From Escherichia phage vB_EcoM-Pr103Blw: DNA of 64,000 bases. Of the stretch, positions 15,323 to 64,000 are shown in pieces. The translations under genes were made by a program, and so were the position numbers. Every line of letters starts with the position of its first letter. The first letter of the stretch is position 1. The stretch is from sequence record MW481326.1, one strand, 5' to 3'. The notes below the pieces were generated by a model. The model was not told where the DNA came from and searched no databases. It saw only the letters and a program-made list of their open reading frames with translations.

Positions 15323-15520
15323 ATGCCTACAATCCTAGCAATTCTTCTAAAAAATCTAGGTAGCTTCTTCTGGAAACTCATTTTATCCCTTCTAAGTGAA
15401 TACATGATTGAGAAAGTGTTCTTTAAGCTTGCAAGATATCTTGCGAGTAAGACAGACACACCTATTGATGATGAGTTCGTAGATAACTTAGAAAAAGCTT
15501 TTAAGGGGGAGAATAAATGA
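15323..15520 (+). CDS. small membrane protein (possibly holin-like)
   Basis: 65 aa, hydrophobic N-terminal half (ILAILLKNLGSFFWKLILSLL), downstream of fibers. Confidence 0.35.
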   Translation: MPTILAILLKNLGSFFWKLILSLLSEYMIEKVFFKLARYLASKTDTPIDDEFVDNLEKAFKGENK

Positions 15521-15888
15521 AGTGGCTAGAGGATGCTTTTAAAAATAATATTGGTGCAATTGTAGTTGGTATTTTTAGTGTTATTGGGATGTATACCACG
15601 ATGCAAGTTTCAAGTGGTAAGCAAGAAGTGTCTGTCACAACGAAGTTACAGCAGCTAGATAATTATTCCAAAAGTAACTATTCAGCTATTCGTGATTTAC
15701 AGTCTGACATGAGACTTATTCAGTTAGGGATGGAGAATCAGAAAGTTCAGTTAGAGAATGTTAAGGGTGAGAATGCAAAACTTACCAAAACTCTTGATAA
15801 GTTCTCTGACAGTGTAAATAATCTGGCTCAATCAGTATCAGCCCTCCAAGCTATTACTGAGAAGAACACAAAAAGTACTGAAAAATAA
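15517..15888 (+). CDS. membrane-anchored coiled-coil protein
   Basis: 123 aa; N-terminal TM (IGAIVVGIFSVIGMY) then heptad-rich region; ATGA overlap with previous ORF. Confidence 0.4.
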   Translation: MKWLEDAFKNNIGAIVVGIFSVIGMYTTMQVSSGKQEVSVTTKLQQLDNYSKSNYSAIRDLQSDMRLIQLGMENQKVQLENVKGENAKLTKTLDKFSDSVNNLAQSVSALQAITEKNTKSTEK

Positions 15889-22047: not shown

Positions 22048-22305
22048 TCACTCAATAACCGTAGTATGTGATTGACCATTTTTGCCATAGCTATAAGATG
22101 TTGTTGTTTGAGAGTTTGGGCATCTGACAACAACAATATCTCTGCTTATAGCATCACCATTGAGTTTGTAGATTTTGCAGTCTTGCATCTCTGGAGGAAG
22201 GCTGTAAGAAGCATCTTTGTTTTCATAAGATGGGTTGCAGCCAGCCAGAAAAATTACTCCAAGTGCAACCATTGCTTTCACACAACTCTTAACCTTATTG
22301 TTCAC
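22048..22305 (-). CDS. lipoprotein
   Basis: GTG start with AGAGAGG SD; signal peptide with lipobox (MNNKVKSCVKAMVALGVIFLAGC). Confidence 0.5.
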   Translation of the reverse strand: MNNKVKSCVKAMVALGVIFLAGCNPSYENKDASYSLPPEMQDCKIYKLNGDAISRDIVVVRCPNSQTTTSYSYGKNGQSHTTVIE

Positions 22306-38530: not shown

Positions 38531-38772
38531 TGACTTATGTAATTTACTCCAAAACTGGATGCCCTCAGTGTGAGACTGCAAAGAATTTTGCGAAAGCTCG
38601 TGGTATTGACCATGTTGTGAGAATGTTAGGGCAGGATTATGAACTGTCAGACCTGATGGATATTGCACAGATGCCAGTTCGTCAGATGCCATTCATCATG
38701 AAAACTGACGGTCAAAACTTAAAACCTGTTGGAACGCTACAGAATTTTATGGCAGAGGTGAATAATGCTTAA
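38530..38772 (+). CDS. nrdH: glutaredoxin-like protein (NrdH-type)
   Basis: 80 aa with CPQC redox motif at N-terminus, directly after nrdB. Confidence 0.7.
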   Translation: MTYVIYSKTGCPQCETAKNFAKARGIDHVVRMLGQDYELSDLMDIAQMPVRQMPFIMKTDGQNLKPVGTLQNFMAEVNNA

Positions 38773-38971
38773 ACGCCTTTTGGAAGGTTTGGTTGTTGAT
38801 GCACCAGCCATTGTGATTGGTATGCTTGTTGTTAACCTATTTACTGATTTTGAACAAGGTTCATTGTTTGGAGCCATGCTATTATGGGTTATCTTTGAAA
38901 TATTAGAGATACAGCTAGGCATCACTGAAAAACTAAGAAAACTCGTTTCAAAGTTTTCTAAAAAGATTTAA
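38765..38971 (+). CDS. small membrane protein
   Basis: 68 aa, two hydrophobic stretches. Confidence 0.4.
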   Translation: MLKRLLEGLVVDAPAIVIGMLVVNLFTDFEQGSLFGAMLLWVIFEILEIQLGITEKLRKLVSKFSKKI

Positions 38972-41173: not shown

Positions 41174-41213
41174 AGGTGATGTGGGTCTTGATAGGCTTAC
41201 ATCACCTTTTTTA
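41174..41213 (+). terminator. rho-independent terminator
   Basis: AGGTGATGT ... ACATCACCT stem followed by TTTTTT. Confidence 0.55.
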
Positions 41214-41318
41214 TTGGATGTTAGATATGGCAGAGAGTATTATTGGGTTGTTCATAGGTTCTGTCTTACTAGGGTTCTTTTTAGGACTCTCTTATTGTGA
41301 GTTGAGAGGTAAGTTAAA

Positions 41319-41519
41319 ATGTTTAAAATATCAAAAGCGATGATATACATACTCCACATCCTAATCTTCTTCTTTGGGGTTAGCGTTATGGTATGGGGCT
41401 TTTCAGACCCACAATGGAGTTTCTCATATCATGGTCAGATGGATTTATGGTCATGCTTCAAACCATTTTTAGGGTTAGCTATAGCATTCAGCGCATTGCC
41501 AACTAAGGTGAAATTATGA
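41319..41519 (+). CDS. small membrane protein
   Basis: 66 aa, GAGAGG SD; hydrophobic; an overlapping 38-aa ORF at 41227..41343 is an alternative. Confidence 0.35.
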   Translation: MFKISKAMIYILHILIFFFGVSVMVWGFSDPQWSFSYHGQMDLWSCFKPFLGLAIAFSALPTKVKL

Positions 41520-48533: not shown

Positions 48534-48874
48534 AAATTATGAAAATCAAAGAGATGAACATCAACATTGTCTTAGAAGAACGTTGGGAGAACATTAAGAG
48601 AACTGAGGACGGTCATAAGTTCCTTAACAAAATTTTAGTAGCAGCTAAAGAAGAACTGACTGGGAAGATTTCAACAGCAATCACAATAAAAGTTTGTGTA
48701 AAAGGTCTTCCAGACAATCACCAATTTGCACTTGACGAGTTTAAAGAAAACTTCTACAATCCAAACAAACAGATGCTTGAAAGTAACTTTGCAGTGTCTA
48801 CAAGTATCGTCCATGACAGAAGCTTTATCCTTTACAAAAATATGAGAGGTGAGTCATGCAAGCATATTGGGTAG
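48527..48874 (+). CDS. hypothetical protein
   Basis: 115 aa. Confidence 0.45.
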   Translation: MVKIMKIKEMNINIVLEERWENIKRTEDGHKFLNKILVAAKEELTGKISTAITIKVCVKGLPDNHQFALDEFKENFYNPNKQMLESNFAVSTSIVHDRSFILYKNMRGESCKHIG

Positions 48875-49032
48875 AAATTTTACTATCACTTGGTAGCGTA
48901 GCAGTATTTGTTTATCTTCTTTGTAAGTACTATGCAGAGCACAAAAAATGTGACTACTGTAATGGAGAAGGTTATACAAGAGCAGGTTGCTGCCCTATAT
49001 GTGGTGGTTCTGGTAAAATGTTTAATAAGTGA
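48856..49032 (+). CDS. small membrane-anchored zinc-finger protein (58 aa, below cutoff)
   Basis: GAGGTGAG SD; N-terminal TM (WVEILLSLGSVAVFVYLL) then CDYCNGEG...CCPICGGSGK (DnaJ-type CxxCxGxG finger). Confidence 0.35.
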   Translation: MQAYWVEILLSLGSVAVFVYLLCKYYAEHKKCDYCNGEGYTRAGCCPICGGSGKMFNK

Positions 49033-49060
49033 TTTAACAGTAAACTAAGAGGAAAGTATT

Positions 49061-51427
49061 ATGCGCATGGTAAACGACCACGCAGAAGTGATTAAGAGTT
49101 CAACTTCTCTAGAGACGTCTCAAGCACAGATTACAATGACACCTGAAATGTTCAGCCTTTTGAGTTCTGGTGTATACACCTTTAAAGAAAGGGCAGTGAT
49201 TCGTGAACTGTCATGTAACGCAGTAGATGCTCAGAAAGAAGCTGGAAAAGAGAACATCCCGTTCCATGTGCATTTACCTACTCGTTTTGAGCCTTACTTT
49301 GAAGTTCGTGATTTTGGAACCGGATTGACTCATGATAAAGTTATGAGTTTGTACCTAAACTATGGAGCTTCTACGAAGAATGACTCTAATGACTACATTG
49401 GTGCAATGGGTATCGGCTCAAAATCACCATTTGCAATTGCTCAGTCATTCACAGTGTCTAGCTATGTTGATGGTGTTGTTAATAAGTACTCTGTTTACCT
49501 TGAGAATGGTATCCCTCAAGTAACTAAGCTAACTACCAACCCAACGAATGAACCTAATGGTTTAGCTGTACGTGTAGCAGTTGCTGACCATCGTATTTCA
49601 AAGTTCTTTGAAGAGGCTGGTAATGTATACTCATACTTTGCTGTAAAACCAGAAAGTAATATCGAGTATGACGATGTATTAGCAGATATGAACGTCATTG
49701 CCCGTGAAGAAGGTGTTTATGATGCCATGATTCATAAGCAAAGCTGGCGTTCTAGTGGTAACAGGACAGAGTTTAATGTGGTGATGGGTAACATTGCCTA
49801 CCCTGTTAATATGGAAGCATTACTTGGTGATGATTTCTTCAAAGTATTGCCAGAATTTTTCCGTAGGAGCGTAGACCTTGTAAACATCTACATGCCTATT
49901 GGTTCAGTTGCTATTGCAGCTTCTCGTGAAGCATTGCAGATGAATGACACGACAAAAAACGTTATCATTGAGGCTACTAAAAAGATAACTGAAGCAATTA
50001 CAAAGGATGTTATCAAGAAAGTTAATAGCCAACCTACACTCATGGATGCTGCACAGGCTTATGCTGAGTTACGTTTGAACTCACGAGAGATGTTTAATGC
50101 TGTGTGTCCAAAGCTAGAGTGGGGCGGTGTTAAGCTTGATTCTCTGGAAGAAGAATTACTAAACATTCGTCGTGGAATTATCTACGCAGAAGACGGCTCA
50201 GTCATTTACGAACGTGACGGTAAAGGCAATATCAAGGTTGATAGGAACGGGAACAATATCCCTAAAGTAGATTATCTTTATGACCCAGTTGCTTATGTCA
50301 AGTTCAACTCTTTAGAGAGTAAGATTCGTGCAACATCGCTTTCCTACACTCAAGAGGCAAGTATGTTCAATATCTTTGGCGCAATGCGTAAAAGTCAAAT
50401 TGAACAGTTTTTGTTTGTTATAAATGACCGTCGAAATAAAAATGGTACTGAGAAGACTGTAGGACGCAACCAAATCTTGCGTGGTGCATGTCGAGACTAT
50501 GCCAGTGAGTCAAGTCTGTTTCACAGATACAATGGTATTGTCTTTGTATTCTCTACAGAGAAAGAGCTAGACGACTTAATCAATCTGCACAAACTTGATA
50601 AAAGCTTGTTAAAGATTGTGAAGATGTCTGACAAGGAACATCATTATCAGCGTAAAGAAGCTGTAAGAGGTGTTGTAAAACTCTGGAAAGCTGTTCCAGC
50701 AGAAGGTGTAGCTTCATACAAAGAGGTGTCAGAAGACTTAGATACGATTGAAGAACCTCAGCTTTACATTAAGGCAGTCGGTGACACAGTTGATGGTGAA
50801 TGTTTTTGCTCATCTCCAGAAGATGTAGCTAAGTCAGTTGCTAATGTTACAGGTAAGACAGTCTATGTTTTCCGAAAAGCAAATTGGAAAAAGATACCAG
50901 AAGACTGGATTGAAGTAGATGAGAAGCTCTTGAATGACAGCTTAACTGATGTTCACTGGATTAACCATAACAGGTATATGACACGTATCTATATGAATGG
51001 TGTCCTCGACCTTACAAGTAGTTGGATTATTGCCAGAAACTTTACGTTCAATAACAGGAAGATTTCTCGTGGCTATTGTTATTCACGGGATACAAACAAA
51101 ACTATCTTCTTAGAAGGTAATGAAGATGCTGTAGAGGCAATGTTTGGTAAAATCCAATACGTTGCTGCACCGTTTGCATATACTTACACTATTAGTAGGT
51201 TGCAAACTTTGAAAGACTGCCTTGACAATGATACAAAGCTTTACAAGAAAATTAAGAAAGCTGGTGACCGCATGGTCATTAAGGTGACAAACTACCTTTC
51301 AAAAAGAAAACAAGAAAACTTCTTGCTTTCTCATTTAGATTGGAATAAAGTGTCACCCATCGAAGTGAGTAAGTTCTTAGGCTTTGATGTGAAGTGTGTT
51401 CCAGAAGGGACTACAATTTACGATTAA
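49061..51427 (+). CDS. rIIA: rIIA protein (GHKL ATPase-like N-terminus)
   Basis: 788 aa; RAVIRELSCNAVDA, VRDFGTGLT and YIGAMGIGSKSPF parallel T4 rIIA N-terminal segments. Confidence 0.85.
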   Translation: MRMVNDHAEVIKSSTSLETSQAQITMTPEMFSLLSSGVYTFKERAVIRELSCNAVDAQKEAGKENIPFHVHLPTRFEPYFEVRDFGTGLTHDKVMSLYLNYGASTKNDSNDYIGAMGIGSKSPFAIAQSFTVSSYVDGVVNKYSVYLENGIPQVTKLTTNPTNEPNGLAVRVAVADHRISKFFEEAGNVYSYFAVKPESNIEYDDVLADMNVIAREEGVYDAMIHKQSWRSSGNRTEFNVVMGNIAYPVNMEALLGDDFFKVLPEFFRRSVDLVNIYMPIGSVAIAASREALQMNDTTKNVIIEATKKITEAITKDVIKKVNSQPTLMDAAQAYAELRLNSREMFNAVCPKLEWGGVKLDSLEEELLNIRRGIIYAEDGSVIYERDGKGNIKVDRNGNNIPKVDYLYDPVAYVKFNSLESKIRATSLSYTQEASMFNIFGAMRKSQIEQFLFVINDRRNKNGTEKTVGRNQILRGACRDYASESSLFHRYNGIVFVFSTEKELDDLINLHKLDKSLLKIVKMSDKEHHYQRKEAVRGVVKLWKAVPAEGVASYKEVSEDLDTIEEPQLYIKAVGDTVDGECFCSSPEDVAKSVANVTGKTVYVFRKANWKKIPEDWIEVDEKLLNDSLTDVHWINHNRYMTRIYMNGVLDLTSSWIIARNFTFNNRKISRGYCYSRDTNKTIFLEGNEDAVEAMFGKIQYVAAPFAYTYTISRLQTLKDCLDNDTKLYKKIKKAGDRMVIKVTNYLSKRKQENFLLSHLDWNKVSPIEVSKFLGFDVKCVPEGTTIYD

Positions 51428-51506: not shown

Positions 51507-52616
51507 ATGACTACTAAAACTAAAGCACAGATTGACGCAGAAATTTACGAACTGGTTAAAGAAGGTAAGCTGACTAAAACAGCTATTGCACAGAAGTTCA
51601 ATACTTCAACCCGTTCAGTTGGTCGTGCTGTAGAGCGTCATGAAGCAACCTTAAAAGGTAAGAAGAAGGCGACTTCTACACCAGCTAAGAAGACCCTAAA
51701 GCAAGTTGCTAAGTCAGTTAAAAAGAAAGCTGGCAAACCAGTTGAAAAGGTCGTTAAAGACGCTGTACAGAAAGCTCCAGTAAATAAACTGCATGAAGCT
51801 ATGCAGAAAGATGACAAGATTGAGTACATGATTACTGGTGACTCTGTAATTATGACTTACGGTTCAGAATCTGAAATTGTTGAGTCTACTCATCCGAACT
51901 ATCAAGAGATTGTAGTTCATGTTGTGAAAGGTGAGTTCAAGAAAGCATTTGAACTGATGAACATTCGTAAGTCTATCGAAAACTTCACTCAGGGTGCTAT
52001 CACAATCAAAGGTGACAAGCTCTTCTACGGTGCTGTTGAGATGCGTTCTACTCTGGTTGACCGTATTCTTCACATGATGAAAACTGGTGATAAAGGTTTT
52101 GAACGACTTGTAATGTTCTTCGAAAAACTGATGGAAAACCCATCTAAAGATTCTGTAGAACAACTTTGGGGATTTGTATCTCACCTTGATGTTGAAATTG
52201 ATGAAGAAGGTTACATCATTGGTTGGAAGAAAGTCTCTACTCGTGAAGGCAAGCTGGTTGACTCTCACACCTACAAAGTGCCTAATGATTTGGGTAACAT
52301 TGTAGAGATGCCACGTTGGATGGTTGATAACAACCGTAACGTAACTTGCTCTCAAGGTCTTCATGTTGGCGCTTGGGATTATGTTCGTTGCTTCTCAGGT
52401 GATACCATCCTGAAGGTTCGTGTCCATCCACGAGATGTTGTATCTGTTCCGACTGATTACAACGATATGAAGATGCGTTCCTCTCGTTATGAAGTTGCAG
52501 CAATCGTTGATAATCAACGTAAAGTGCTGAAAGCATGGGATGGTAAGACTGAAGCTTTGCATGTCATCGTTGGCACTGCTGGTGAACTCATCTCTCAACG
52601 TAAACGTGAAATCTAA
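51507..52616 (+). CDS. rIIB: rIIB protein
   Basis: 369 aa; LFYGAVEMRSTLVDRIL, CSQGLHVG and VRVHPRDVVSVPTDYNDMKMR closely parallel T4 rIIB segments. Confidence 0.8.
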   Translation: MTTKTKAQIDAEIYELVKEGKLTKTAIAQKFNTSTRSVGRAVERHEATLKGKKKATSTPAKKTLKQVAKSVKKKAGKPVEKVVKDAVQKAPVNKLHEAMQKDDKIEYMITGDSVIMTYGSESEIVESTHPNYQEIVVHVVKGEFKKAFELMNIRKSIENFTQGAITIKGDKLFYGAVEMRSTLVDRILHMMKTGDKGFERLVMFFEKLMENPSKDSVEQLWGFVSHLDVEIDEEGYIIGWKKVSTREGKLVDSHTYKVPNDLGNIVEMPRWMVDNNRNVTCSQGLHVGAWDYVRCFSGDTILKVRVHPRDVVSVPTDYNDMKMRSSRYEVAAIVDNQRKVLKAWDGKTEALHVIVGTAGELISQRKREI

Positions 52617-52632
52617 TAAGTAATTTCTTAAA

Positions 52633-52656
52633 AGGCTGCTTCGGCGGCCTTTTTTA
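52633..52656 (+). terminator. rho-independent terminator
   Basis: GGCTGC-ttcg-GCGGCC followed by TTTTTTATTT. Confidence 0.55.
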
Positions 52657-52685
52657 TTTGTATTTTGTGCAGAGTGCTGTATAAT
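52657..52685 (+). promoter_or_regulatory. promoter-like element with TGTGCAG motif
   Basis: TTTGTA-17 nt-TATAAT with adjacent TG; contains TTGTGCAGAG resembling the 57.1-57.3 kb repeat unit. Confidence 0.35.
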
Positions 52686-52716: not shown

Positions 52717-53265
52717 ATGAAGAAATTGATTCTAGGCTTGTGCTTAATGTTTACAGCACACTTATCTTATGCAGTTGACTGCCCAGAGCTAACAATTAGC
52801 CAAAAAGTAAACATGTTAAAAGCTTACCAGTATGGTGAGAATAATATGGGTAAAGGTTGGGGTATTACTCTAGCAGCTATAGCCTTACAAGAGTCAGAGT
52901 TAGGTCTGAAGGTAGAGAATAAAAAGACCCACGACTATGGTATTTTCCAGAATCACTTGAAGACTGTTGTAAAGCGTAACAAAATTAGTCCTAATGTGGC
53001 TAAAAAGAAACTCTTAAAAGATTTTGACTATGCAGCAAAAGAGACGCATAAAGAGCTTGAGTTTTGGACTAAGGTACATGGTCACCCGAAGTCAAAGAAG
53101 ACTTTACAAAAAGTTTTAGCATCATATAATGCTGGGTATTCGTACAAAATCCCTAAAGCTAAGAAATACTCTCAAGATGTCTATAACAATATGAAAGTTA
53201 TTGCTCAATGTGAATTTGCAACAAACATTTCTAAGGTAAATCATGAAAAAATTAAGAAAGTCTGA
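52717..53265 (+). CDS. secreted lytic transglycosylase-like protein (SLT/GH23-like)
   Basis: Signal peptide MKKLILGLCLMFTAHLSYA; AIALQESELG...DYGIFQ resembles SLT catalytic Glu-Ser region. Confidence 0.5.
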   Translation: MKKLILGLCLMFTAHLSYAVDCPELTISQKVNMLKAYQYGENNMGKGWGITLAAIALQESELGLKVENKKTHDYGIFQNHLKTVVKRNKISPNVAKKKLLKDFDYAAKETHKELEFWTKVHGHPKSKKTLQKVLASYNAGYSYKIPKAKKYSQDVYNNMKVIAQCEFATNISKVNHEKIKKV

Positions 53266-53938
53266 TGAAGTCCTGTGCCACGCTTATGACTTGCATCCTC
53301 ATGAGTTAGGTCTTGATTCCTGTGTATGGACTCCAGAACAGTGCAGGGATTTTGAAGACACTGCAAGAGAAGTTGTATGTTCACTTGAAGAGTTCCACAC
53401 ATCAGAACCAATTGTGAACGTTGTGGATAAAGAAACTGGACAAGCTATAGGTGTAAGTCGTGATAGTTTAGTCATAGTCAATAAAGACCTTGTAGAAAAA
53501 GGTAACCTCATCTTAGCAGATATTGATGGTGTTCTTACAAATTTTAATCACGAAGACTGCTCAACGGAATTGACTGATGGGTCATTCTCACAGTACACTA
53601 ATCTTCTTGACTCTGTAAGAGCAAAACCAACATATGTTTTTAGTATTATTGATGCAATTGCTAATCATGCTGCCATTGGACTCTTGACAGCGAGAGGTGA
53701 ATCTCAGAGAATACCTACTGAGATGTTTTTAAGGCATAACATAGAACATGATTACATGCTTTTTATGCGTGGTTTTGGAACTAACTCTATAAGTGCAGAA
53801 AGTTTAAAAGTGAGGATGATTCAGTCTTGCATTCTTCCTTATTTTAATATAGTATGCTTTATAGAAGATACAGAGAAGAATGTTCAGAAGGTTAACAGAA
53901 TCCTTCCACACATTAAAACCATGTTAGTTAAACATTGA
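53243..53938 (+). CDS. HAD-family phosphatase-like protein
   Basis: 231 aa; ILADIDGVLTNF matches HAD motif I (DxDGVL). Confidence 0.35.
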   Translation: MKKLRKSDEVLCHAYDLHPHELGLDSCVWTPEQCRDFEDTAREVVCSLEEFHTSEPIVNVVDKETGQAIGVSRDSLVIVNKDLVEKGNLILADIDGVLTNFNHEDCSTELTDGSFSQYTNLLDSVRAKPTYVFSIIDAIANHAAIGLLTARGESQRIPTEMFLRHNIEHDYMLFMRGFGTNSISAESLKVRMIQSCILPYFNIVCFIEDTEKNVQKVNRILPHIKTMLVKH

Positions 53939-53949
53939 GAGAAAAACTT

Positions 53950-54414
53950 ATGAACAATATCATTACGGTAGCACTGGACGATACGGCAAACAAATCTGAA
54001 GTAGTTCGTAAAATGATTCAAGGTAACTTTGAAGGTAAAATTTTCCGTGCTGTTAATGTAAAAGCTGATGGCAGCATTCGTGAATACCGTGCATTGTTGA
54101 ATGTTAAAAAGCACGTAAAAGGTGCTGGTTCAACGACTGCACACAAAGAAAACCTGATGACTATCTACGATATGGGTAAGGCTTCAGAGTTAGGTGCTGA
54201 AGGTATCGTTAAAGAAGGTGCTCCGTATCGCTCTTTCAATCTGGAAACTACTCTTATGCTTTCCTTTACAAGTGGTTCTAAAACAATCACTTATCTCTTT
54301 ACTGATGCTGCAACGGTATCTGCTATTAAGGATAGCACTGTCAAAGCTGGCGTAGTTGCTGCTGCAAAAGCTTCTTCGATGGCTGCAAATATCCTTGCTA
54401 AAGTCCTCGGTTAA
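53950..54414 (+). CDS. hypothetical protein
   Basis: ATG 53950 (track start 53935 is TTG); about 154 aa, Ala-rich C-terminus. Confidence 0.45.
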   Translation: MNNIITVALDDTANKSEVVRKMIQGNFEGKIFRAVNVKADGSIREYRALLNVKKHVKGAGSTTAHKENLMTIYDMGKASELGAEGIVKEGAPYRSFNLETTLMLSFTSGSKTITYLFTDAATVSAIKDSTVKAGVVAAAKASSMAANILAKVLG

Positions 54415-54426
54415 GGTTAAGATACA

Positions 54427-54447
54427 GGCTCCTTCGGGAGCCTTTTT
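54427..54447 (+). terminator. rho-independent terminator
   Basis: GGCTCC-ttcg-GGAGCC followed by TTTTTCATTT. Confidence 0.6.
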
Positions 54448-54466
54448 CATTTCAGGAGATTGCTAA

Positions 54467-54814
54467 ATGACATTTAAAGAGTTCTGTCAAGCTACTTTCA
54501 TAATTGTTTTCTTAGTTGGGGCAGGTGTCTGGGGAGGATACTCTTACAGAGACTACCAAGTTGCTGAAGCTGAGTTAAGCAATGAGAAACTAATAAGTGT
54601 TGCTAAAGATGCTTATCAGGAAGGTTTAGCCACACTCAGCACCAATTACAAAAATGATTTGAAAGATGTGCTTGCTAAGAATAAGCACACAAAAGAGGTA
54701 CTAACATATGAAAAAACTAAGCCAGAGTTTTATAATGTTTGTGTTACTGATAATTATGTCAGGGTGTTCAACGAACAAAGTGAACAGTACATTCAAAAAC
54801 TACCAAGTAAGTGA
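54467..54814 (+). CDS. putative i-spanin (Rz-like)
   Basis: 115 aa; N-terminal TM (ATFIIVFLVGAGVWGGY) then coiled-coil periplasmic domain; o-spanin-like gene embedded at its 3' end. Confidence 0.5.
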   Translation: MTFKEFCQATFIIVFLVGAGVWGGYSYRDYQVAEAELSNEKLISVAKDAYQEGLATLSTNYKNDLKDVLAKNKHTKEVLTYEKTKPEFYNVCVTDNYVRVFNEQSEQYIQKLPSK

Positions 54815-54977
54815 GAGTGACAAGTACACTCAAGAAGAGTCAAGATTCACTGTCAAAGGTAATACTGGTAGTGATGTGGCAGCAGCCCTTGAGTTTTATC
54901 GTGATGGTTTTTACCAGTGCACAATCAAAGCTAATAACCTTATTGATATGATTTTATTAGGAAATAAACAGCAATGA
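54708..54977 (+). CDS. putative o-spanin (Rz1-like lipoprotein)
   Basis: 89 aa; lipoprotein signal with lipobox (LLIIMSGC); starts inside i-spanin gene in another frame. Confidence 0.5.
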   Translation: MKKLSQSFIMFVLLIIMSGCSTNKVNSTFKNYQVSESDKYTQEESRFTVKGNTGSDVAAALEFYRDGFYQCTIKANNLIDMILLGNKQQ

Positions 54978-56271: not shown

Positions 56272-57057
56272 ATGGGTATTGTAAAAATCATCAATGGTGA
56301 TATCTTTGCTGCATTTGATAAAGGTAAGTTTGACATCATTGGTCATGGTTGTAACTGCATGAACCTAATGGGTGCAGGTATCGCTGACAAGATTTCTAAA
56401 CTTTACCCAAAAGCATATGAGACCGATACAGAAGTTTATCTATATGCAGGTGGTATAGGACACAAACCCTGTGAAAATTTACTGGGTAATTTCTCTGTAG
56501 CACGTTTAAAACAAGGTCGTATAGCCAACCTTTACACTCAGCTTAAGACTGGTAAAGATGCCCGATACAGTGCTTTAGAGTTATCTTTGAAACAGCTTAA
56601 CAGATACTGTGAAGTTAATCAGTTGAAGAAAGTTGGTTTACCTATGATTGGCGCAGGTATCGGTGGGTTGGACCCTCAAGCCGTCACAGTTATCATCAAT
56701 CAGGTGATGAAGAGTGTAGATGTTTATCTATATGTCTATGAAGGAGAGATGTACCACAAGTTACGCTCAGGTTGGAAGAACTACTGTGAACCAGAATACT
56801 TTGCAGGTGTAGTTGTGTTCACGGATAATGCAGTTACCCTCTTCAGACGAAGAAAAGGTAAGATACATCAAAGTAACCCTCCGGTTGAGAAGATGTCTCT
56901 AAGTAACGCTCTAGTTACCCACCTGTCGAAGAGCAATCACAGGATAGCCGTAACATTTGGCAGTGATGCAGATACATATATTTATGCAAGAACTGATGAG
57001 GATATTGAGACGGTCTTCTCTTCACCGGAAGTTACCTTCTTAGACGCAAAGAACTAA
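56272..57057 (+). CDS. macro-domain protein (ADP-ribose binding/processing) with C-terminal extension
   Basis: N-terminus NGDIFAAFDKGKFDIIGHGCNCMNLMGAGIA and later LPMIGAGIGGL match macro-domain Gly-rich ADP-ribose-binding loops. Confidence 0.6.
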   Translation: MGIVKIINGDIFAAFDKGKFDIIGHGCNCMNLMGAGIADKISKLYPKAYETDTEVYLYAGGIGHKPCENLLGNFSVARLKQGRIANLYTQLKTGKDARYSALELSLKQLNRYCEVNQLKKVGLPMIGAGIGGLDPQAVTVIINQVMKSVDVYLYVYEGEMYHKLRSGWKNYCEPEYFAGVVVFTDNAVTLFRRRKGKIHQSNPPVEKMSLSNALVTHLSKSNHRIAVTFGSDADTYIYARTDEDIETVFSSPEVTFLDAKN

Positions 57058-57131
57058 GAAACTCTGTATAATATTCACAATAGACTAAGCCTTTCTTATC
57101 TGGTAAATTTTTCAGGTAAGGAGGGCTTTTT

Positions 57132-57365: not shown

Positions 57366-57484
57366 AAAGTCAAGAGAAAAATTTGTAGCGGATTGAAAAA
57401 TAATTCTTGATTTGTGTTCTGTTTTGTGGTAGTCGTGTGCGCACGTTTCATTACAGTTTTCCAAAAATATTTTTAAAATTTTTC

Positions 57485-57578
57485 TTGACTCTTTGAACGG
57501 GGTTATCTAGTATTTGCATCAACGGGGAGGGAATGACCTTTCCCACTAAGTAAAGTCCTTAAATTAGGAGATTCAAAA
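57485..57578 (+). promoter_or_regulatory. early promoter plus conserved leader cassette, copy 1
   Basis: TTGACT-17 nt-TAGTAT, then leader TCAACGGGGAGGGAATGACCTTTCCCACTAAGTAAAGTCCTTAAATTAGGAGATTCAAAA-ATG. Confidence 0.65.
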
Positions 57579-58724: not shown

Positions 58725-59050
58725 TGACTGGTATCACTGCAATCATTGCCATTTTCGCGCTATATAAGGCATATAAAGCCTATAATCTAGCAAATAAGGC
58801 AATCACACAGCAGGTTAGCAATAACCTTGTAGAGAGCTTTCTAGGGCGTTTAAGTGATGAGCAAATAAAGCGGCTAGAGATGAGCTTCAGATATAAAGCG
58901 AAAACCTATCAAATAAGTGACATCTTCAAAGATGATTTTCAGTTAGTTGATGATTATAATTCTCTGATAAATGCTTTAAATATCAGTGACTTAAAAGACT
59001 ACTACGCTGTAATTGTTCAAGAATTGAGCAAACGAAAACAAAACTGTTGA
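58718..59050 (+). CDS. early membrane-anchored protein, unknown function
   Basis: 110 aa; N-terminal hydrophobic segment (LMTGITAIIAIFALY). Confidence 0.5.
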   Translation: MLMTGITAIIAIFALYKAYKAYNLANKAITQQVSNNLVESFLGRLSDEQIKRLEMSFRYKAKTYQISDIFKDDFQLVDDYNSLINALNISDLKDYYAVIVQELSKRKQNC

Positions 59051-59138
59051 CACTGGTTTTTAGATAGATTAAATTACACATCAACGGGGAGGGAATGACC
59101 TTCCCCACTAAATAAAGTCCTAAACTGGAGATTCTAAA
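59047..59138 (+). promoter_or_regulatory. early promoter plus conserved leader cassette, copy 2
   Basis: TTGACA-17 nt-TAAATT then leader with GGGGAGGGAATGACCTTCCCC hairpin and AGGAGA... wait-free RBS GGAGATTCTAAA-ATG. Confidence 0.65.
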
Positions 59139-59495: not shown

Positions 59496-59900
59496 ATGGC
59501 TATTAATAACCGTGAATTATCAATCTTAAAAGCACGTTTGACCGTCAACCGGATTAATGTTCTGACATCATCAGCGCCTGATGAGACATTGCACAACATT
59601 ATCGGAAAGATTCAAAGTGTTATCTTAGACGTTGAAAACGTAAAAAACTCATTGGCTGACGTTGCAGCAGGTATCACGCTAGACGGTGCGCAATATGAAA
59701 TGATTGATATGTTAGGCAAATCAAAGGTTATGAATAAAGAGTTAGACCTAAAAATGTTTCGATTTGCCGTGAAAGTATGGCTATCTGTCGAGTATGATGC
59801 TAATTTTGCAATCGCTGATTTCTTCGCCACTTGGTTACAACGTAATTTGACAAATCACGATTTTCGTGGCATCTGCGATGCAATTTATGCAGAACTCTAA
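59496..59900 (+). CDS. early protein, unknown function
   Basis: 134 aa. Confidence 0.6.
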   Translation: MAINNRELSILKARLTVNRINVLTSSAPDETLHNIIGKIQSVILDVENVKNSLADVAAGITLDGAQYEMIDMLGKSKVMNKELDLKMFRFAVKVWLSVEYDANFAIADFFATWLQRNLTNHDFRGICDAIYAEL

Positions 59901-59909
59901 AAAATTTTG

Positions 59910-60003
59910 TTGACACTGGTTTTTAGATAGATTAAATTACACATCAACGGGGAGGGAATGACCTTCCCCACTAAATAAAGTCCTTAAACTAGGAGATTCA
60001 AAA
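59910..60003 (+). promoter_or_regulatory. early promoter plus conserved leader cassette, copy 3
   Basis: About 95 bp nearly identical to copy 2 (TTGACACTGGTTTTTAGATAGATTAAATTACACATCAACGGGG...). Confidence 0.65.
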
Positions 60004-60900: not shown

Positions 60901-61134
60901 ATGCTTACAACCATTTATCTCATCCTTTCCATTTGTAACGGCCATTCATGCGATTTTAAAGGGCTTGAGGAGTTCACAGGAAGTAAAGAAAATGCCATTC
61001 AAGTTTGTCAGATAGCAAGGCAAGACTATCCCGCCAGTGATGACATACAATGCTACTTTAAGACAGAAGATGAAGAAGGCATTTATTTTGATAGTGTTGA
61101 CGGTCAATATGAAATTATCATTGAAAAAGACTAG
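60901..61134 (+). CDS. early protein, unknown function
   Basis: 77 aa; GGGGGC SD. Confidence 0.5.
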   Translation: MLTTIYLILSICNGHSCDFKGLEEFTGSKENAIQVCQIARQDYPASDDIQCYFKTEDEEGIYFDSVDGQYEIIIEKD

Positions 61135-61225
61135 ACAAGCCTGATAAAAGCTTGTAGAGTGTCAATCAACGGGGAGGGAATAACCTTCCCCACTAAGTAA
61201 AGTCCTTAAACTAGGAGATTCTAAA
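61132..61225 (+). promoter_or_regulatory. early promoter plus conserved leader cassette, copy 4
   Basis: TAGACA-17 nt-TAGAGT overlapping upstream stop, then leader with GGGGAGGGAATAACCTTCCCC hairpin. Confidence 0.55.
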
Positions 61226-61628: not shown

Positions 61629-61696
61629 TGTTCGAGGGGGTTTATCTAAAAGGGATTCACTTAAAAGATTCTTTATAGATAAGCTTAAAAAATTGC

Positions 61697-61789
61697 TTGC
61701 AATCAACTATCAAAACAAGTAAATTACTAATCAACGGGGAGGCGATAACCTTCCCCACTAAATAAAGTCCTTAAACTAGGAGATTCAAA
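61697..61789 (+). promoter_or_regulatory. early promoter plus conserved leader cassette, copy 5
   Basis: TTGCAA-17 nt-TAAATT then leader (hairpin GGGGAGGCGATAACCTTCCCC). Confidence 0.6.
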
Positions 61790-62320: not shown

Positions 62321-62382
62321 ATTGTCAATCAACGGGGGATAACCTCCCCCACTAAACAAAATCCTAAACTGGAGTTATCAAG
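62295..62382 (+). promoter_or_regulatory. early promoter plus conserved leader cassette, copy 6
   Basis: TTGACG-17 nt-TAAATT (-10 overlaps stop codon); shortened hairpin GGGGGATAACCTCCCCC. Confidence 0.6.
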
Positions 62383-62646
62383 ATGGAAAACGTAGAATTA
62401 ACCACACTTTTACAAATTGCAACCGACAAAGAAGATGTAGCATTATTCCACCGTATCGAAAGTGATTTGTTCAATGGTGAAATCATTAAAGAATCTTACG
62501 AAGTTGTCGGATTCAAAGATGGTAAAGCATTTGGCTTTTTTGACCTCGACAAAAGCAAAGCGGTTACAATGTACGATGTTCTATCTTGTGAAATTCTGAC
62601 AAAATACAACGAAAAAAGGCTTGCAACCTACGCCAATATGCAGTAA
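62383..62646 (+). CDS. early protein, unknown function
   Basis: 87 aa. Confidence 0.6.
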   Translation: MENVELTTLLQIATDKEDVALFHRIESDLFNGEIIKESYEVVGFKDGKAFGFFDLDKSKAVTMYDVLSCEILTKYNEKRLATYANMQ

Positions 62647-62713
62647 ATTACTAATCAACGGGGAGGGAATGACCTTCCCACTAAACAAAGTCCTAAACTG
62701 GAGAATCTAAATT
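62621..62713 (+). promoter_or_regulatory. early promoter plus conserved leader cassette, copy 7
   Basis: TTGCAA-17 nt-TAAATT then leader with GGGGAGGGAATGACCTTCCC hairpin. Confidence 0.6.
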
Positions 62714-63039: not shown

Positions 63040-64000
63040 TATACAATCCCTTTCCTTTCTAGAATCTTATCAGACCTTAAAAAGCAATAACTCTATAGTC
63101 TACTCTATAACCTCTTATCAAATCAACTTAAATATAAGCCCATAACCCGAAAGGGAAGGGCAACCACTAAAATGCTCTATAAAGCTCTATAACAGCCTTA
63201 TCAACCTAACTTAAGCAATCATATTAACCCACTCTAAAAAGCCCTTTATAGAGCTTCCTAGAGCCTTAAAAGAATCTTATAAGGGTACAAGCTTATAAGC
63301 TGGCTAGTATCTTGTGAATACCTAAACAACCCCTTGATAGTCACTAAAAAGTATGTTATAGGGGCTATAGAGTTACTTCAAAGTTACGTAAAAAGAGCTA
63401 TAAAGTTACGTAAATGCTAGCCCCCTTAACATTTTCTTAACAATTTCTTAACAAACCCTACATAGTTATGCTTGTTAGAGACTTGTTAGCCCCTTGTTAA
63501 ATCTCTGTTAAGACCACGTAAAAGCCTTGTAAGAGTCTTTGACATATCCTTAAAAGCCTCTGTAAAGCCCTATAAAGAGCTATCCATACAGTTGAGGGGT
63601 AAATACTAGGGAGAGCCTTAAAAGAGCTTACAAGGGGCTGTATAGGGCTTTTAAGAGGTATGTTTAAGAGTTCACTAAGAAAGGAAAGGGAACGATAAGA
63701 AAAGAGATAGTGACCATGTTAATAGCTTGTTAAAAAGATTAAACACTTGTTAGAAACTTGTTAATTATCTTAATAAAATAACTCTTTAAAATTAACTTGT
63801 TAGCTCTTATTAGTCATCTGTTAAGACTCTGTAAAGACTATTCAGCACTTGTTAGAAAACTGTTACATCCTTGTTAGTTCTGTTAAGAGACTGTTAAGAC
63901 CTTTGAAGAGTTGTTAAGAGCTTGTGAGAACTGTTAAGAGATTGTTAAGGATATTTTAAAATTTTGCAAAGTACTTGTAAGGGAGTTGTTAAGGGCTACC
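63040..64000. repeat. non-coding region dense in short degenerate repeats (CTATARAG and yTGTTARr families)
   Basis: No ORF of 60 aa or more; more than 20 copies of TGTTAAG/TGTTAGA-like heptamers, from about 63840 spaced every 10-12 bp; also TTACGTAA x2 and CTATAAAG/CTATAGAG copies. Confidence 0.6.

What the first reader, a model, noticed from the sequence alone, without database searches (positions are those of the whole stretch)
52717..54977. Lysis-associated block: signal-peptide lytic transglycosylase and an overlapped i-spanin/o-spanin pair, but no obvious holin or classical endolysin
54467..54814 (TM plus coiled coil) with an embedded out-of-frame lipoprotein gene (54708..54977, lipobox MSGC) is the textbook overlapped Rz/Rz1 spanin arrangement. 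Upstream, 52717..53265 encodes a transglycosylase-like protein with a cleavable-looking signal peptide; a Sec-exported muralytic enzyme is unusual for an endolysin because export would be holin-independent. It may be a SAR-type endolysin, a periplasmic exclusion or entry factor, or need a dedicated inhibitor. I did not recognise a holin here; 15323..15888 are alternative holin candidates.
Basis: partly seen in the sequence, partly recalled or inferred. Interest (0 to 1): 0.4.

Follow-up and report, generated by a model that had tools for sequence, protein, structure and literature searches.

The report
Felix O1-type spanins and exported transglycosylase
This stretch of a Felix O1-like phage holds an already catalogued outer-membrane-disrupting spanin gene pair and, in a separate operon, a secreted cell-wall-cutting enzyme related to the uncharacterised T4 protein Vs.1. 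The apparently missing endolysin simply lies just outside the window, so the finding is largely ordinary.

Summary
The window is a Felixounavirus (~97% identical to E. coli phages KEP1 and HY02).

- **Spanins:** 54467-54814 and 54708-54977 form a genuine overlapped two-component spanin. It is already annotated in many GenBank records and listed for Felix O1 in the 2018 spanin census.
- **Family:** ORF182 is the Felix O1 counterpart of T4 Vs.1 (PHROG 600). It was found in 2,127 phage records, and its role in infection is unknown.
- **Not a cassette:** it is not an endolysin-less lysis cassette. Conserved intrinsic terminators put the SLT gene and the spanins in separate units.
- **Other lysis genes:** the canonical soluble endolysin lies ~4.9 kb beyond the window's end.

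ORF182 is most likely an accessory exported muramidase rather than the main endolysin. The finding is known biology, with one under-studied gene.

The parts
49061..51427 (+). rIIA homologue (context; upstream operon)
   Evidence: Annotated RIIA lysis inhibitor in JN01, SME50, EcoM2 and HY02 at the syntenic position.
51507..52616 (+). rIIB homologue (context; upstream operon)
   Evidence: Annotated RIIB in relatives. The syntenic gene in distant locus L018 carries PF26926 Phage_T4_rIIB.
52630..52653 (+). Intrinsic terminator after rIIB (Felix O1 't2'): 10-bp stem, UUCG loop, T-run
   Evidence: Listed as t2 in the Felix O1 paper's Table 2. Conserved in Moogle, where a T.G pair is changed to T-A.
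52658..52685 (+). Sigma-70-type promoter-like site TTGTAT-16 nt-TATAAT in front of the SLT gene (inferred)
   Evidence: Read from the sequence. Identical in Felix O1, and TTGAAA-16-TATAAT in Moogle. L018 has TTGACT-17-TAAAAT at the equivalent place. Not experimentally mapped.
52717..52773 (+). Signal peptide of ORF182 (19 codons: MKKLILGLCLMFTAHLSYA, predicted SPase I cut after SYA)
   Evidence: h-region 11 aa. The same n/h/c layout occurs in T4 Vs.1, RB43, Ackermannviridae and Kolesnikvirus homologues and in essentially all 169 family members examined.
52774..53265 (+). Mature ORF182: GH23/SLT-fold muramidase or lytic transglycosylase, Felix O1 gp3 / T4 Vs.1 homologue. Catalytic E59-S60, Q78, Y137-N138-x-G140, Y151; Cys22-Cys165 probable disulfide
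53243..53938 (+). HAD/PNKP-phosphatase-like protein (annotated 'polynucleotide kinase'). Overlaps the SLT gene by 23 nt; same operon; not a lysis gene
   Evidence: phrog_3970. Weaker PNK PHROG hits cover only residues 85-219. Overlap measured. Conserved next to the SLT gene in Kolesnikvirus (36% id) and L018 (HAD_PNKP).
53950..54414 (+). ORF159/154, unknown function (phrog_2267). Last gene of the SLT operon (alternative TTG start at 53935)
   Evidence: 56% identical homologue at the same position in Kolesnikvirus.
54426..54443 (+). Intrinsic terminator (Felix O1 't5') between ORF159 and the i-spanin gene
   Evidence: Listed as t5 in the Felix O1 paper.
54467..54814 (+). i-spanin (115 aa; N-terminal TMD residues 9-27; one periplasmic Cys92 in the conserved F-x-N-x-C motif)
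   Evidence: phrog_1152 Rz-like spanin, E 9e-42. Annotated i-spanin in many records. 'JH2 family' including Felix01 in Kongari 2018. Homologue in a holin-endolysin-spanin cassette of Yersinia phage YenM324. Features.
54708..54977 (+). o-spanin (89 aa; lipobox IMSG|C20, +2 Ser; mature 70 aa; Cys71; no proline). +1 frame, 107-nt overlap with the i-spanin gene
   Evidence: phrog_4180, with weak hits to phrog_456 Rz-like spanin and Pfam LysC. Annotated o-spanin in many records.
56272..57057 (+). Macro-domain protein, homologue of T4 Tk.4. Last gene of the spanin-containing unit (context)
   Evidence: PF01661, E 7e-7. 35% identity to T4 Tk.4, E 2e-22. Followed by terminator 57087-57128 = Felix O1 t13.
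15517..15888 (+). Putative holin (Felix O1 gp79 equivalent; 123 aa, one N-terminal TMD at 12-29, long polar C-terminal part). Distant from the finding but part of the same lysis system
   Evidence: Annotated holin or putative holin in Mordin, phiSUSP1, Sf13/15/18, SME50 and others. Candidate in the Felix O1 paper. No PHROG function label. Untested experimentally.

Best explanation
The region belongs to a Felix O1-like myovirus whose lysis genes are scattered, as they are in T4. It contains two independent things.

(1) A two-component spanin. 54467-54814 encodes an inner-membrane i-spanin. [quoted passage not shown] By analogy with lambda Rz/Rz1 and P2 LysB/LysC, the two proteins bridge the periplasm as disulfide-linked dimers. 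They destroy the outer membrane once the cell wall has been degraded.

(2) ORF182, in a separate upstream operon that has its own host-type promoter and is bracketed by terminators. It is the counterpart of T4 Vs.1: a small GH23/SLT-fold muramidase, probably a lytic transglycosylase. It is made with a cleavable Sec signal peptide, released into the periplasm and stabilised by one disulfide.

ORF182 is not the phage's principal endolysin. That role belongs to a soluble T4-lysozyme-type enzyme encoded about 4.9 kb beyond the window. That enzyme is presumably released by the putative holin at 15517-15888.

The most likely role of ORF182 is accessory (inferred, not shown). It would be a holin-independent, pre-positioned periplasmic wall-cutting enzyme that remodels or weakens the sacculus at sub-lethal levels during infection and so assists final lysis, rather than causing it.

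Shown here: identity, fold, motifs, export signal, gene architecture, synteny and the operon boundaries.
Inferred: enzymatic activity, export, timing and the physiological role.
For: Taxonomy and synteny:
- 97% identity to Felixounavirus genomes.

Spanins:
- TMD, lipobox, +2 Ser and 107-nt +1-frame overlap.
- The same features, plus one conserved Cys per partner, in five diverged pairs.
- A homologous pair sits inside a holin-endolysin-spanin cassette in a P2-like phage.
- PHROG 'Rz-like spanin', existing annotations and the published census.

ORF182 identity and fold:
- PHROG 600. T4 vs.1 is the T4 homologue, and T4 Vs.1 scores 110 bits, E 5e-36, against a profile that did not contain it.
- Invariant E-S, Q, YNxG and Y motifs; E-[ST] in 169/169 and YNxG in 160/169 family members.
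- All 15 relatives hit Pfam SLT. EtgA is the best solved relative.

Export:
- Short h-region plus SYA|V site, conserved across the family.
- Cys22/Cys165 covary perfectly, 14 both / 6 neither / 0 mixed.
- The Belin laboratory describes T4 vs.1 as 'an exported lysozyme' that is weakly toxic from P_BAD.

Not the main endolysin, and not a cassette:
- HY02 endolysin gp038 lies outside the window and has no TMD.
- Felix O1 lysin gp35 carries PF00959, and the paper states there is no holin-lysin cassette.
- Terminators bracket the SLT operon.
- gp3 is absent from the virion proteome list.

Tolerance of periplasmic transglycosylase activity:
- E. coli survives periplasmic overexpression of MltA and MltB after transient lysis.
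Against: - ORF182 alone is below Pfam's SLT gathering score. It has no NCBIfam hit and no direct PDB sequence hit by phmmer.
- No published enzymology exists for any member. The 'exported lysozyme' statement rests on an unpublished thesis.
- The signal-peptide call is rule-based; no SignalP was available.
- The only expression data are coarse RT-PCR. Felix O1 ORF3 peaks at 25 min, together with the lysin ORF35 and the i-spanin ORF6. That also fits a true lysis-timed enzyme.
- A signal-peptide SLT enzyme is the bona fide endolysin in Campylobacter phage F352, so an endolysin-like, holin-gated role cannot be excluded.
- The accessory 'sacculus-conditioning' role is inference only.
- The holin assignment of 15517-15888 is annotation only. 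Its Felix O1 equivalent peaked at 5 min in RT-PCR, which is odd for a holin.
Confidence: 0.6

Rival explanations
1. ORF182 is a genuine second endolysin of the 'signal-peptide endolysin' type. It would be exported early by Sec, held inactive in the energised periplasm, and switched on when the holin collapses the membrane potential, as shown for fOg44 Lys44 and Campylobacter phage F352 Lys.
For: - It has the same domain logic as F352 Lys: cleavable signal peptide plus SLT domain, 182 vs 188 aa. F352 Lys needs Sec for export and the holin for activation.
- Felix O1 ORF3 peaks at the same RT-PCR time point as the lysin and the i-spanin.
- T4 vs.1 is only weakly toxic when induced, which is compatible with a restrained enzyme.
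Against: - F352 Lys is not a member of this family. It gives no hit to either family profile, and BLASTP similarity is confined to the signal peptide.
- The phage already has a canonical soluble endolysin.
- From my own knowledge, not tested here: T4 e mutants fail to lyse even though vs.1 is present. At least in T4, the homologue therefore cannot replace the endolysin.
Confidence: 0.22
2. ORF182 is a SAR (signal-arrest-release) endolysin, tethered to the inner membrane by an uncleaved, weakly hydrophobic N-terminal domain and released by a pinholin.
For: It has an N-terminal hydrophobic segment on a muralytic domain. A minority of family members have longer N-terminal hydrophobic runs of 17 residues or more (21 of 169). 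One metagenomic member has an 18-residue anchor.
Against: - The h-region is only 11 residues and strongly hydrophobic (LILGLCLMFTA).
- It is followed by a canonical small-x-small cleavage site, SYA|V.
- The same short signal-peptide layout is seen in T4, RB43, Ackermannviridae and Kolesnikvirus homologues.
- No pinholin-like gene is adjacent.
Confidence: 0.03
3. ORF182 is a 'specialised' lytic transglycosylase like EtgA, IagB, IpgF, VirB1 or P19. It would open local gaps in the wall for an envelope-spanning assembly or process of the infected cell (for example spanin complexes), or serve superinfection exclusion or envelope repair, rather than bulk wall degradation.
For: - Size and layout are the same: about 160-180 aa with a signal peptide.
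- In Felixounavirus, D73 aligns with EtgA's extra catalytic Asp.
- The gene lies 1.2 kb upstream of the spanin genes across Ounavirinae.
Against: - No partner apparatus has been identified.
- In T4, RB43 and Ackermannviridae the homologue is not near spanin genes.
- D73 is not conserved outside the Felixounavirus-like subgroup.
- Spanins are not known to need wall gaps (own knowledge).
Confidence: 0.1
4. ORF182 is a catalytically inert or non-muralytic protein that merely resembles SLT, and the weak Pfam hit is misleading.
For: The Pfam score is below threshold. PHROG 600 is labelled 'unknown function'. Foldseek E-values against PDB are weak.
Against: - Catalytic E-[ST] is present in 169/169 members and YNxG in 160/169.
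- All relatives pass Pfam SLT.
- Toxicity of T4 vs.1 has been reported.
Confidence: 0.03

Closest known systems
Bacteriophage T4 Vs.1 (gene between regB and vs; PHROG 600)
   Same: - Homologous over the full length: 32% identity, tblastn E 2e-9.
- T4 Vs.1 scores 110 bits against the Felixounavirus-centred profile.
- Same size, the same N-terminal signal peptide, and the same E-S / Q / YNxG / Y motifs.
- Both lie near a Tk.4-type macro-domain gene.
- Both phages also have a separate canonical endolysin and dispersed lysis genes.
   Different: - T4 Vs.1 lacks the Cys22/Cys165 pair and the Asp73 found here.
- Its neighbours differ: regB and vs in T4, versus rIIB and a HAD/PNKP-like gene here.
- The function of Vs.1 is itself unpublished except as 'exported lysozyme, toxic when induced', from a thesis.
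Overlapped two-component spanins: the 'JH2 family' of Kongari et al. 2018 (Felix O1, wV8, Moogle, phiEco32); P2 LysB/LysC as the tested overlapped prototype
   Same: - i-spanin with an N-terminal TMD.
- o-spanin lipoprotein gene starting inside the i-spanin gene in the +1 frame and extending beyond it.
- Periplasmic cysteines in both partners.
- A homologous pair sits in a P2-like lysis cassette in Yersinia phage YenM324.
   Different: - Here the pair is not next to the holin or endolysin; it lies in the rII region, behind a terminator.
- The mature o-spanin is long (70 aa) and has no proline, whereas lambda Rz1 is 40 aa with 10 Pro.
- Direct similarity to Pfam LysC is only marginal (E 0.16).
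Lambda Rz/Rz1
   Same: Same functional class and topology. The o-spanin is read in the +1 frame of the i-spanin gene.
   Different: Lambda Rz1 is wholly embedded in Rz, whereas here the genes only overlap by 107 nt. No detectable sequence similarity was found.
Signal-peptide endolysins: Campylobacter Fletchervirus F352 Lys; Oenococcus phage fOg44 Lys44
   Same: A muralytic domain (SLT in F352) behind a cleavable Sec signal peptide. Export does not depend on the holin. Lysis genes are dispersed in the genome.
   Different: - Not the same sequence family.
- Those enzymes are the phage's endolysin, whereas this phage has a separate canonical endolysin.
- Holin or PMF gating is untested here.
Specialised lytic transglycosylases of secretion systems (EtgA, IagB, IpgF, VirB1, P19)
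   Different: ORF182 is phage-encoded with no secretion apparatus partner. The similarity is remote (about 20% identity). It forms its own well-delimited family of about 600 clusters at E <= 1e-10.
SAR endolysins (P1 Lyz, phage 21 R)
   Same: An N-terminal hydrophobic segment on a wall-degrading enzyme, with Sec-dependent membrane insertion.
   Different: The h-region is too short and too hydrophobic, and a cleavage site is present. It belongs to a different catalytic family.

Membership tests
Two-component spanin (i-spanin + o-spanin) | i-spanin: single N-terminal transmembrane domain, with the rest of the protein periplasmic | tested here: met
   Uncharged run at residues 9-27; KD19 maximum 1.75. 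Conserved in 5 diverged homologues.
Two-component spanin (i-spanin + o-spanin) | i-spanin periplasmic domain is alpha-helical / coiled coil | tested here: inconclusive
   The single-sequence AlphaFold model is all-helical, but pLDDT is only 48. No coiled-coil predictor was run.
Two-component spanin (i-spanin + o-spanin) | o-spanin: lipoprotein signal with a lipobox Cys and an outer-membrane sorting residue (+2 not Asp) | tested here: met
   IMSG|C20 with +2 Ser. Lipobox Cys and +2 Ser are present in all 5 pairs.
Two-component spanin (i-spanin + o-spanin) | o-spanin gene embedded in, overlapping or immediately following the i-spanin gene | tested here: met
   +1 frame, 107-nt overlap, extends 163 nt beyond the i-spanin gene. 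Overlapped class as defined.
Two-component spanin (i-spanin + o-spanin) | At least one periplasmic cysteine available for homotypic disulfide bonds | tested here: met
   i-spanin Cys92 and o-spanin Cys71, each conserved in the alignments. The rule is described.
Two-component spanin (i-spanin + o-spanin) | Association of the family with holin and endolysin genes somewhere in its distribution | tested here: met
   Yersinia phage YenM324 has holin-endolysin-i-spanin-o-spanin with homologous spanins.
Two-component spanin (i-spanin + o-spanin) | Required for outer-membrane disruption (mutants end as spherical cells) | not testable with these tools
   Needs genetics and microscopy.
GH23 / family-1 lytic transglycosylase (Pfam SLT, PF01464) | Passes the Pfam gathering threshold | tested here: inconclusive
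   The window protein scores 18.7 bits against a 21.3 cutoff. All 15 aligned relatives match at E <= 0.01, best 8e-12.
GH23 / family-1 lytic transglycosylase (Pfam SLT, PF01464) | Catalytic Glu in the E-S motif, plus the G-x-x-Q, A-Y-N-x-G and C-terminal Tyr motifs | tested here: met
   E59, S60, Q78, Y137-N138-x-G140 and Y151 are invariant or nearly so. E-[ST] is present in 169/169 members.
GH23 / family-1 lytic transglycosylase (Pfam SLT, PF01464) | Goose-lysozyme/SLT fold | tested here: met
GH23 / family-1 lytic transglycosylase (Pfam SLT, PF01464) | Non-hydrolytic cleavage giving 1,6-anhydroMurNAc products (as opposed to lysozyme-type hydrolysis) | not testable with these tools
   The fold is shared with g-type lysozymes and GH23 chitinases, so muropeptide analysis is needed.
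T4 Vs.1 family (PHROG 600) | Full-length profile match to PHROG 600 and reciprocal similarity to T4 Vs.1 | tested here: met
   phrog_600 E 1.9e-57, positions 1-176 of 178. The T4 gene at that locus is also phrog 600. T4 Vs.1 scores 110 bits against profile A1.
T4 Vs.1 family (PHROG 600) | N-terminal export signal | tested here: met
SAR endolysin | Uncleaved, weakly hydrophobic N-terminal TMD (about 17 residues or more, rich in Gly/Ala/Ser/Thr) without an SPase I site | tested here: not met
   The h-region is 11 residues (LILGLCLMFTA) and the SYA|VD site is present.
SAR endolysin | Acts as the phage's endolysin together with a pinholin | tested here: not met
   A canonical soluble endolysin lies elsewhere in the genome. 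There is no adjacent small membrane protein.
Signal-peptide endolysin (F352 Lys / Lys44 type) | Cleavable Sec signal peptide fused to a muralytic domain | tested here: met
   Prediction only.
Signal-peptide endolysin (F352 Lys / Lys44 type) | Sequence-family membership with the characterised SLT example, F352 Lys | tested here: not met
Signal-peptide endolysin (F352 Lys / Lys44 type) | Activity gated by the holin or by loss of membrane potential; serves as the endolysin | not testable with these tools
   Needs expression and lysis assays. The presence of a separate endolysin argues against a sole-endolysin role.
Specialised secretion-system transglycosylases (EtgA/IagB/IpgF/VirB1) | Genetic linkage to, and activation by, a secretion or pilus apparatus | tested here: not met
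   The phage context contains no such genes.

The most novel reading that the evidence does not exclude
Vs.1-family enzymes are conserved in Straboviridae, Ackermannviridae, Ounavirinae and many uncultured phages (2,127 phage records; about 600 clusters at 50% identity). They could constitute an unrecognised, holin-independent step of the infection cycle of large virulent myoviruses. In this reading, a Sec-exported periplasmic transglycosylase either pre-conditions the sacculus for rapid lysis or cell enlargement, or acts as a membrane-potential-gated second endolysin. That would make it a fourth class of lysis-related function alongside holin, endolysin and spanin.
Probability: 0.2. Interest if true: 0.5.

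Novelty: already known. Interest (0 to 1): 0.22.

Why it matters
The practical value is mostly corrective.
- A 64-kb window can make a phage look as if it lacks an endolysin when its lysis genes are simply dispersed.
- Spanin pairs of this family are already catalogued.

One point of real, though modest, interest remains. A Sec-exported SLT-type enzyme is conserved in more than two thousand genomes of T4-like, Vi1-like and Felix O1-like phages. It keeps its catalytic residues and export signal everywhere, yet it has no published function. It is labelled 'hypothetical', 'unknown function', or wrongly 'RegB endoribonuclease' in databases.

Felix O1-like and T4-like phages are used in diagnostics and therapy. 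Knowing whether this enzyme tunes lysis timing, burst size or envelope integrity would therefore be useful. The enzyme could also be a candidate periplasm-active antibacterial.

Tried and rejected
1. **T4 module synteny.** I tested whether the PNK-like gene plus the spanins form a module homologous to T4 pseT/pseT.2/pseT.3. tblastn with either spanin finds Ounavirinae, Gordonclarkvirinae (phiEco32-like) and a P2-like phage but no T4-like phage, so the resemblance is positional at most. The 'PNK' matches only the phosphatase/HAD part.
2. **F352 endolysin membership.** I tested whether the characterised Campylobacter F352 signal-peptide SLT endolysin belongs to the same family. It does not.
3. 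**P0021 as a phage endolysin.** I tested whether the Campylobacter coli family member P0021 is a known Campylobacter phage endolysin. It has no hit above 60% identity in the phage collection.
5. **Holin by family label.** None of ten small membrane proteins in the window has a PHROG holin label. Only depositor annotations name 15517-15888 as holin.
6. **Conserved inhibitor or immunity partner.** The downstream neighbour is conserved only within Ounavirinae (HAD/PNKP-like, cytoplasmic-looking). It differs in T4, RB43 and Ackermannviridae. One metagenomic homologue is followed by a lipoprotein gene; I did not pursue this.
7. **i-spanin structure.** The single-sequence AlphaFold model had too low confidence to judge a coiled coil.
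8. **Literature searches for 'vs.1'.** These mostly return noise because of the token. Only two relevant papers were found.
9. **Other muralytic domains.** A Pfam scan of tail and baseplate proteins found none in the window.

Full report
**What the window is.**
- The 4-kb stretch around the finding is 96-97% identical to Escherichia phages KEP1, DE17, E9 and HY02. It matches 274 phage records, almost all Felixounavirus.
- The window maps colinearly onto HY02. Window position 49036 corresponds to HY02 position 1, and window position 64000 to HY02 position 15202.
- The gene order around the finding is: rIIA (49061-51427), rIIB (51507-52616), ORF182 (52717-53265), a 'polynucleotide kinase'-labelled gene (53243-53938), an unknown ORF (53950-54414), i-spanin (54467-54814), o-spanin (54708-54977), several small ORFs, and a macro-domain protein (56272-57057).

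**Checking the observation.**
- ORF182 begins MKK/LILGLCLMFTA/HLSYA|VD. This is a basic n-region, an 11-residue hydrophobic core and a small-x-small site.
- The i-spanin has a single N-terminal TMD (residues 9-27).
- The o-spanin has the lipobox IMSG|C20, with Ser at +2 and no Asp.
- The o-spanin gene starts in the +1 frame inside the i-spanin gene, overlaps it by 107 nt and extends 163 nt past it. The correct term is therefore 'overlapped', not 'embedded'.
- The window contains no homologue of the Felixounavirus endolysin. I found no other muralytic Pfam domain in its tail and baseplate proteins.

**The spanin pair is real and already known.**
- The i-spanin hits PHROG 1152, 'Rz-like spanin' (E 9e-42). 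The o-spanin hits phrog_4180, with weaker hits to an Rz-like PHROG and to Pfam LysC.
- tblastn finds the i-spanin in 406 phage records and the o-spanin in 374. Many records annotate them as i-spanin and o-spanin.
- I compared five diverged pairs: this window, Mooglevirus, Kolesnikvirus, the podovirus EP335 and the P2-like Yersinia phage YenM324.
- All five keep the N-terminal TMD, the +1-frame overlapped lipoprotein gene, the lipobox Cys, Ser at +2, one conserved periplasmic Cys in the i-spanin (F-x-N-x-C motif) and one near the C-terminus of the o-spanin.
- In YenM324 the homologous pair closes a classical holin-endolysin-i-spanin-o-spanin cassette.
- The published spanin census lists Felix01, wV8, Moogle, JH2 and phiEco32 in one i-spanin family. 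It places Felix01 among the overlapped architectures, and it describes homotypic disulfides as a near-universal spanin feature.
A single-sequence model is helical throughout but has low confidence.

**ORF182 is an SLT/GH23-fold enzyme.**
- Alone it falls short of Pfam's SLT threshold (18.7 vs 21.3 bits). It belongs to PHROG 600, 'unknown function'. It has no NCBIfam hit and no direct PDB sequence hit.
- At family level the picture is clear. All 15 aligned relatives match Pfam SLT (best E 8e-12).
- A family profile finds the T3SS transglycosylase EtgA as its only significant solved relative (E 6e-5), with the catalytic Glu aligned.
- The signature motifs of family-1 lytic transglycosylases are invariant: E59-S60, G75/Q78, Y137-N138-x-G140 and Y151.
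- An AlphaFold model built on the alignment is confident (pLDDT 85.9).
- The fold is shared by true lysozymes, so whether the chemistry is lytic-transglycosylase or hydrolytic cannot be decided here.

**ORF182 is the Felix O1 version of T4 Vs.1.**
- tblastn finds homologues in 2,127 phage records: T4-like phages of Escherichia, Klebsiella, Shigella, Aeromonas, Acinetobacter and Vibrio, plus Ackermannviridae and Ounavirinae.
- The T4 match lies between regB and vs and is also PHROG 600. RB43 labels the gene vs.1.
- T4 Vs.1 was not used to build profile A1, yet it scores 110 bits (E 5e-36) against it.
- Nolan et al. 2006 reported the marginal SLT similarity of vs.1 and suggested 'some role in cell lysis'.
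- The only functional statement I found comes from the Belin laboratory. It uses pBAD18-vs.1 as a weakly toxic construct 'encoding an exported lysozyme' and cites an unpublished 2009 thesis.
- A search of 1.84 billion cluster representatives shows a well-delimited family: 1,270 hits at E <= 1e-3 and 600 at E <= 1e-10, all small single-domain proteins.
- Among 169 members examined, the catalytic E-[S/T] is present in all and YNxG in 160. Essentially every one begins with a hydrophobic export signal.

**Exported, cleaved, and not SAR.**
- The hydrophobic core is too short (11 residues) and too hydrophobic for a SAR domain. It is followed by a typical SPase I site.
- T4 Vs.1 (MRKALLAGLLAISMMAHS|SE), RB43, Se_EM1, phiA8-29 and Kolesnikvirus homologues have the same layout.
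- Cys22 and Cys165 are either both present (14 sequences) or both absent (6), and never singly. That is the pattern expected of a structural disulfide in an oxidising compartment.
- Felix O1 gp3 is not among the virion proteins listed from proteomics, so a role in entry is unlikely.

**Not a lysis cassette, and not missing an endolysin.**
- Three strong intrinsic terminators lie at 52630-52653, 54426-54443 and 57087-57128. They are the t2, t5 and t13 terminators of the Felix O1 paper.
- These terminators divide the region into three units: rIIA-rIIB; ORF182-HAD/PNKP-like-ORF159; and i-spanin ... macro-domain protein.
- Immediately after t2 there is a promoter-like TTGTAT-16-TATAAT (52658-52685). 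It is identical in Felix O1 and reads TTGAAA-16-TATAAT in Moogle, where the terminator stem also keeps pairing. A distant relative has TTGACT-17-TAAAAT at the equivalent place.
- The SLT-HAD/PNKP-like-ORF159 triad is conserved in Kolesnikvirus (36% and 56% identity for the two neighbours) and in metagenomic locus L018.
- The phage's endolysin (HY02 gp038, a 154-aa soluble lysozyme-type protein without a TMD) is encoded at HY02 20082-20546, about 4.9 kb beyond the window's end.
- The Felix O1 paper names the lysin gp35 (PF00959). It states that no holin-lysin cassette exists, 'as with coliphage T4', and lists gp79 among the holin candidates.
- The window's gp79 equivalent (15517-15888) has one N-terminal TMD. 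It is annotated holin or putative holin in many curated records, but has no PHROG function label and no experimental support that I could find.
- RT-PCR in the Felix O1 paper puts ORF3 (the SLT), ORF4, ORF6 (the i-spanin) and ORF35 (the lysin) in the class peaking at 25 min. ORF79 falls in the 5-min class. These data are coarse.

**How it most likely works.**
- Spanins (by analogy with tested systems). [quoted passage not shown] They fuse or disrupt the outer membrane once the endolysin has removed the wall.
- ORF182 (identity shown, role inferred). It is translated with a signal peptide, exported by Sec, cleaved after Ala19, oxidised by the Dsb system, and then acts on peptidoglycan in the periplasm without needing a holin.
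- The phage has a standard holin-dependent endolysin. In addition, from my own knowledge and not tested here, T4 e mutants do not lyse despite carrying vs.1. I therefore regard ORF182 as accessory.
- E. coli tolerates periplasmic overproduction of MltA and MltB after a transient lysis phase, with Rcs induction and rounder cells. A dedicated inhibitor is therefore not required to explain viability until lysis.
- The main rival is that ORF182 is a signal-peptide endolysin, pre-positioned and gated by membrane potential. This was shown for the SLT endolysin of Campylobacter phage F352. That enzyme, however, is not a member of this sequence family.

**Verdict.**
- The spanins are already catalogued. 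The SLT protein's homology to T4 Vs.1 has been on record since the first Felix O1 deposit. The 'missing' endolysin is a window-edge artefact.
- What remains open is the biological role of the widely conserved Vs.1 family. That question is real but modest, and it is not specific to this window.

Noticed in passing
window 57474-57562, 59036-59124, 59899-59987, 61121-61209, 61686-61774, 62335-62385 (partial), 62610-62698: Six to seven copies of an ~89-nt intergenic cassette, each in front of a small ORF. It consists of a sigma-70-like promoter (TTGACA-17-TAAATT), a conserved hairpin (GGGGAGGGAATGACCTTCCCC) and a conserved leader with RBS (ACTAAATAAAGTCCTTAAACTAGGAGATTC). A second 101-nt repeat family lies at 57948, 58328, 59396 and 60193. 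It looks like a reiterated early-gene promoter/leader module.
   Followed up: partly
window 63717-63958: A cluster of short iteron-like direct repeats (TGTTAAGA.../CTTGTTA; four overlapping 47-nt copies) at the end of the small-ORF region. It could be a regulatory or origin-like element.
   Followed up: no
window 53243-53938: This gene is widely annotated 'polynucleotide kinase'. It matches PNK PHROGs only over residues 85-219 (the HAD/3'-phosphatase part, with a DIDGV motif), and I saw no P-loop. The kinase label looks over-stated. It overlaps the SLT gene by 23 nt.
   Followed up: partly
window 56272-57057; L006 4883-5350; L011 3512-4231: A macro-domain protein (PF01661) is homologous to T4 Tk.4 (35% id, E 2e-22). 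vs.1-like and tk.4-like genes are neighbours in T4, RB43 and Aeromonas phage phiA8-29, and lie within 3 kb of each other here. This is possibly a remnant of ancient synteny between T4-like, Ackermannviridae and Felix O1-like early regions.
   Followed up: partly
L010 2902-3519 (Salmonella phage Se_EM1) and other Ackermannviridae records: Several Ackermannviridae records label their Vs.1-like gene 'endoribonuclease RegB'. The protein matches T4 Vs.1 (E 4e-20) and the family profile (128 bits) but not T4 RegB (E 2.9). This is a propagated mis-annotation, probably arising because regB is the neighbour of vs.1 in T4.
   Followed up: yes
window 22048-22305 (-), 19026-19409 (-), 19692-19838 (-): Other envelope-targeted small proteins sit in the minus-strand early block: a lipoprotein (lipobox FLAG|C, phrog_902), a signal-peptide protein with cysteines (phrog_4332) and a 48-aa two-TMD protein. 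All are of unknown function. They are candidates for superinfection exclusion or similar roles.
   Followed up: no
window 38765-38971 (+), 41176-41343 and 41319-41519 (+), 48856-49032 (+): Further small membrane proteins. The first is a 68-aa two-TMD protein with a charged C-terminus just after the glutaredoxin gene; it has class-II-holin-like topology but is annotated only 'membrane protein'. Two more membrane proteins follow nrdD. A TMD + CxxC...CxxC protein lies immediately upstream of rIIA. The holin identity in this phage group is not experimentally settled.
   Followed up: partly
L016 6001-6878 (metagenomic contig ERZ21849166:contig_2694): A distant family member (P0020) has an 18-residue N-terminal membrane anchor instead of a short signal peptide. 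It is followed, with a 4-nt overlap, by a 100-aa lipoprotein gene (lipobox LVSG|C). This may be an enzyme/partner pair worth a separate look.
   Followed up: no
window 52717-53265, residue D73: In the Felixounavirus-like subgroup an Asp (D73, in HDYGIFQ) aligns with EtgA's additional active-site Asp60. It is Ser, Ala or Asn in T4, RB43, Ackermannviridae and most other members. This may mean a subgroup-specific shift in catalytic mechanism.
   Followed up: partly
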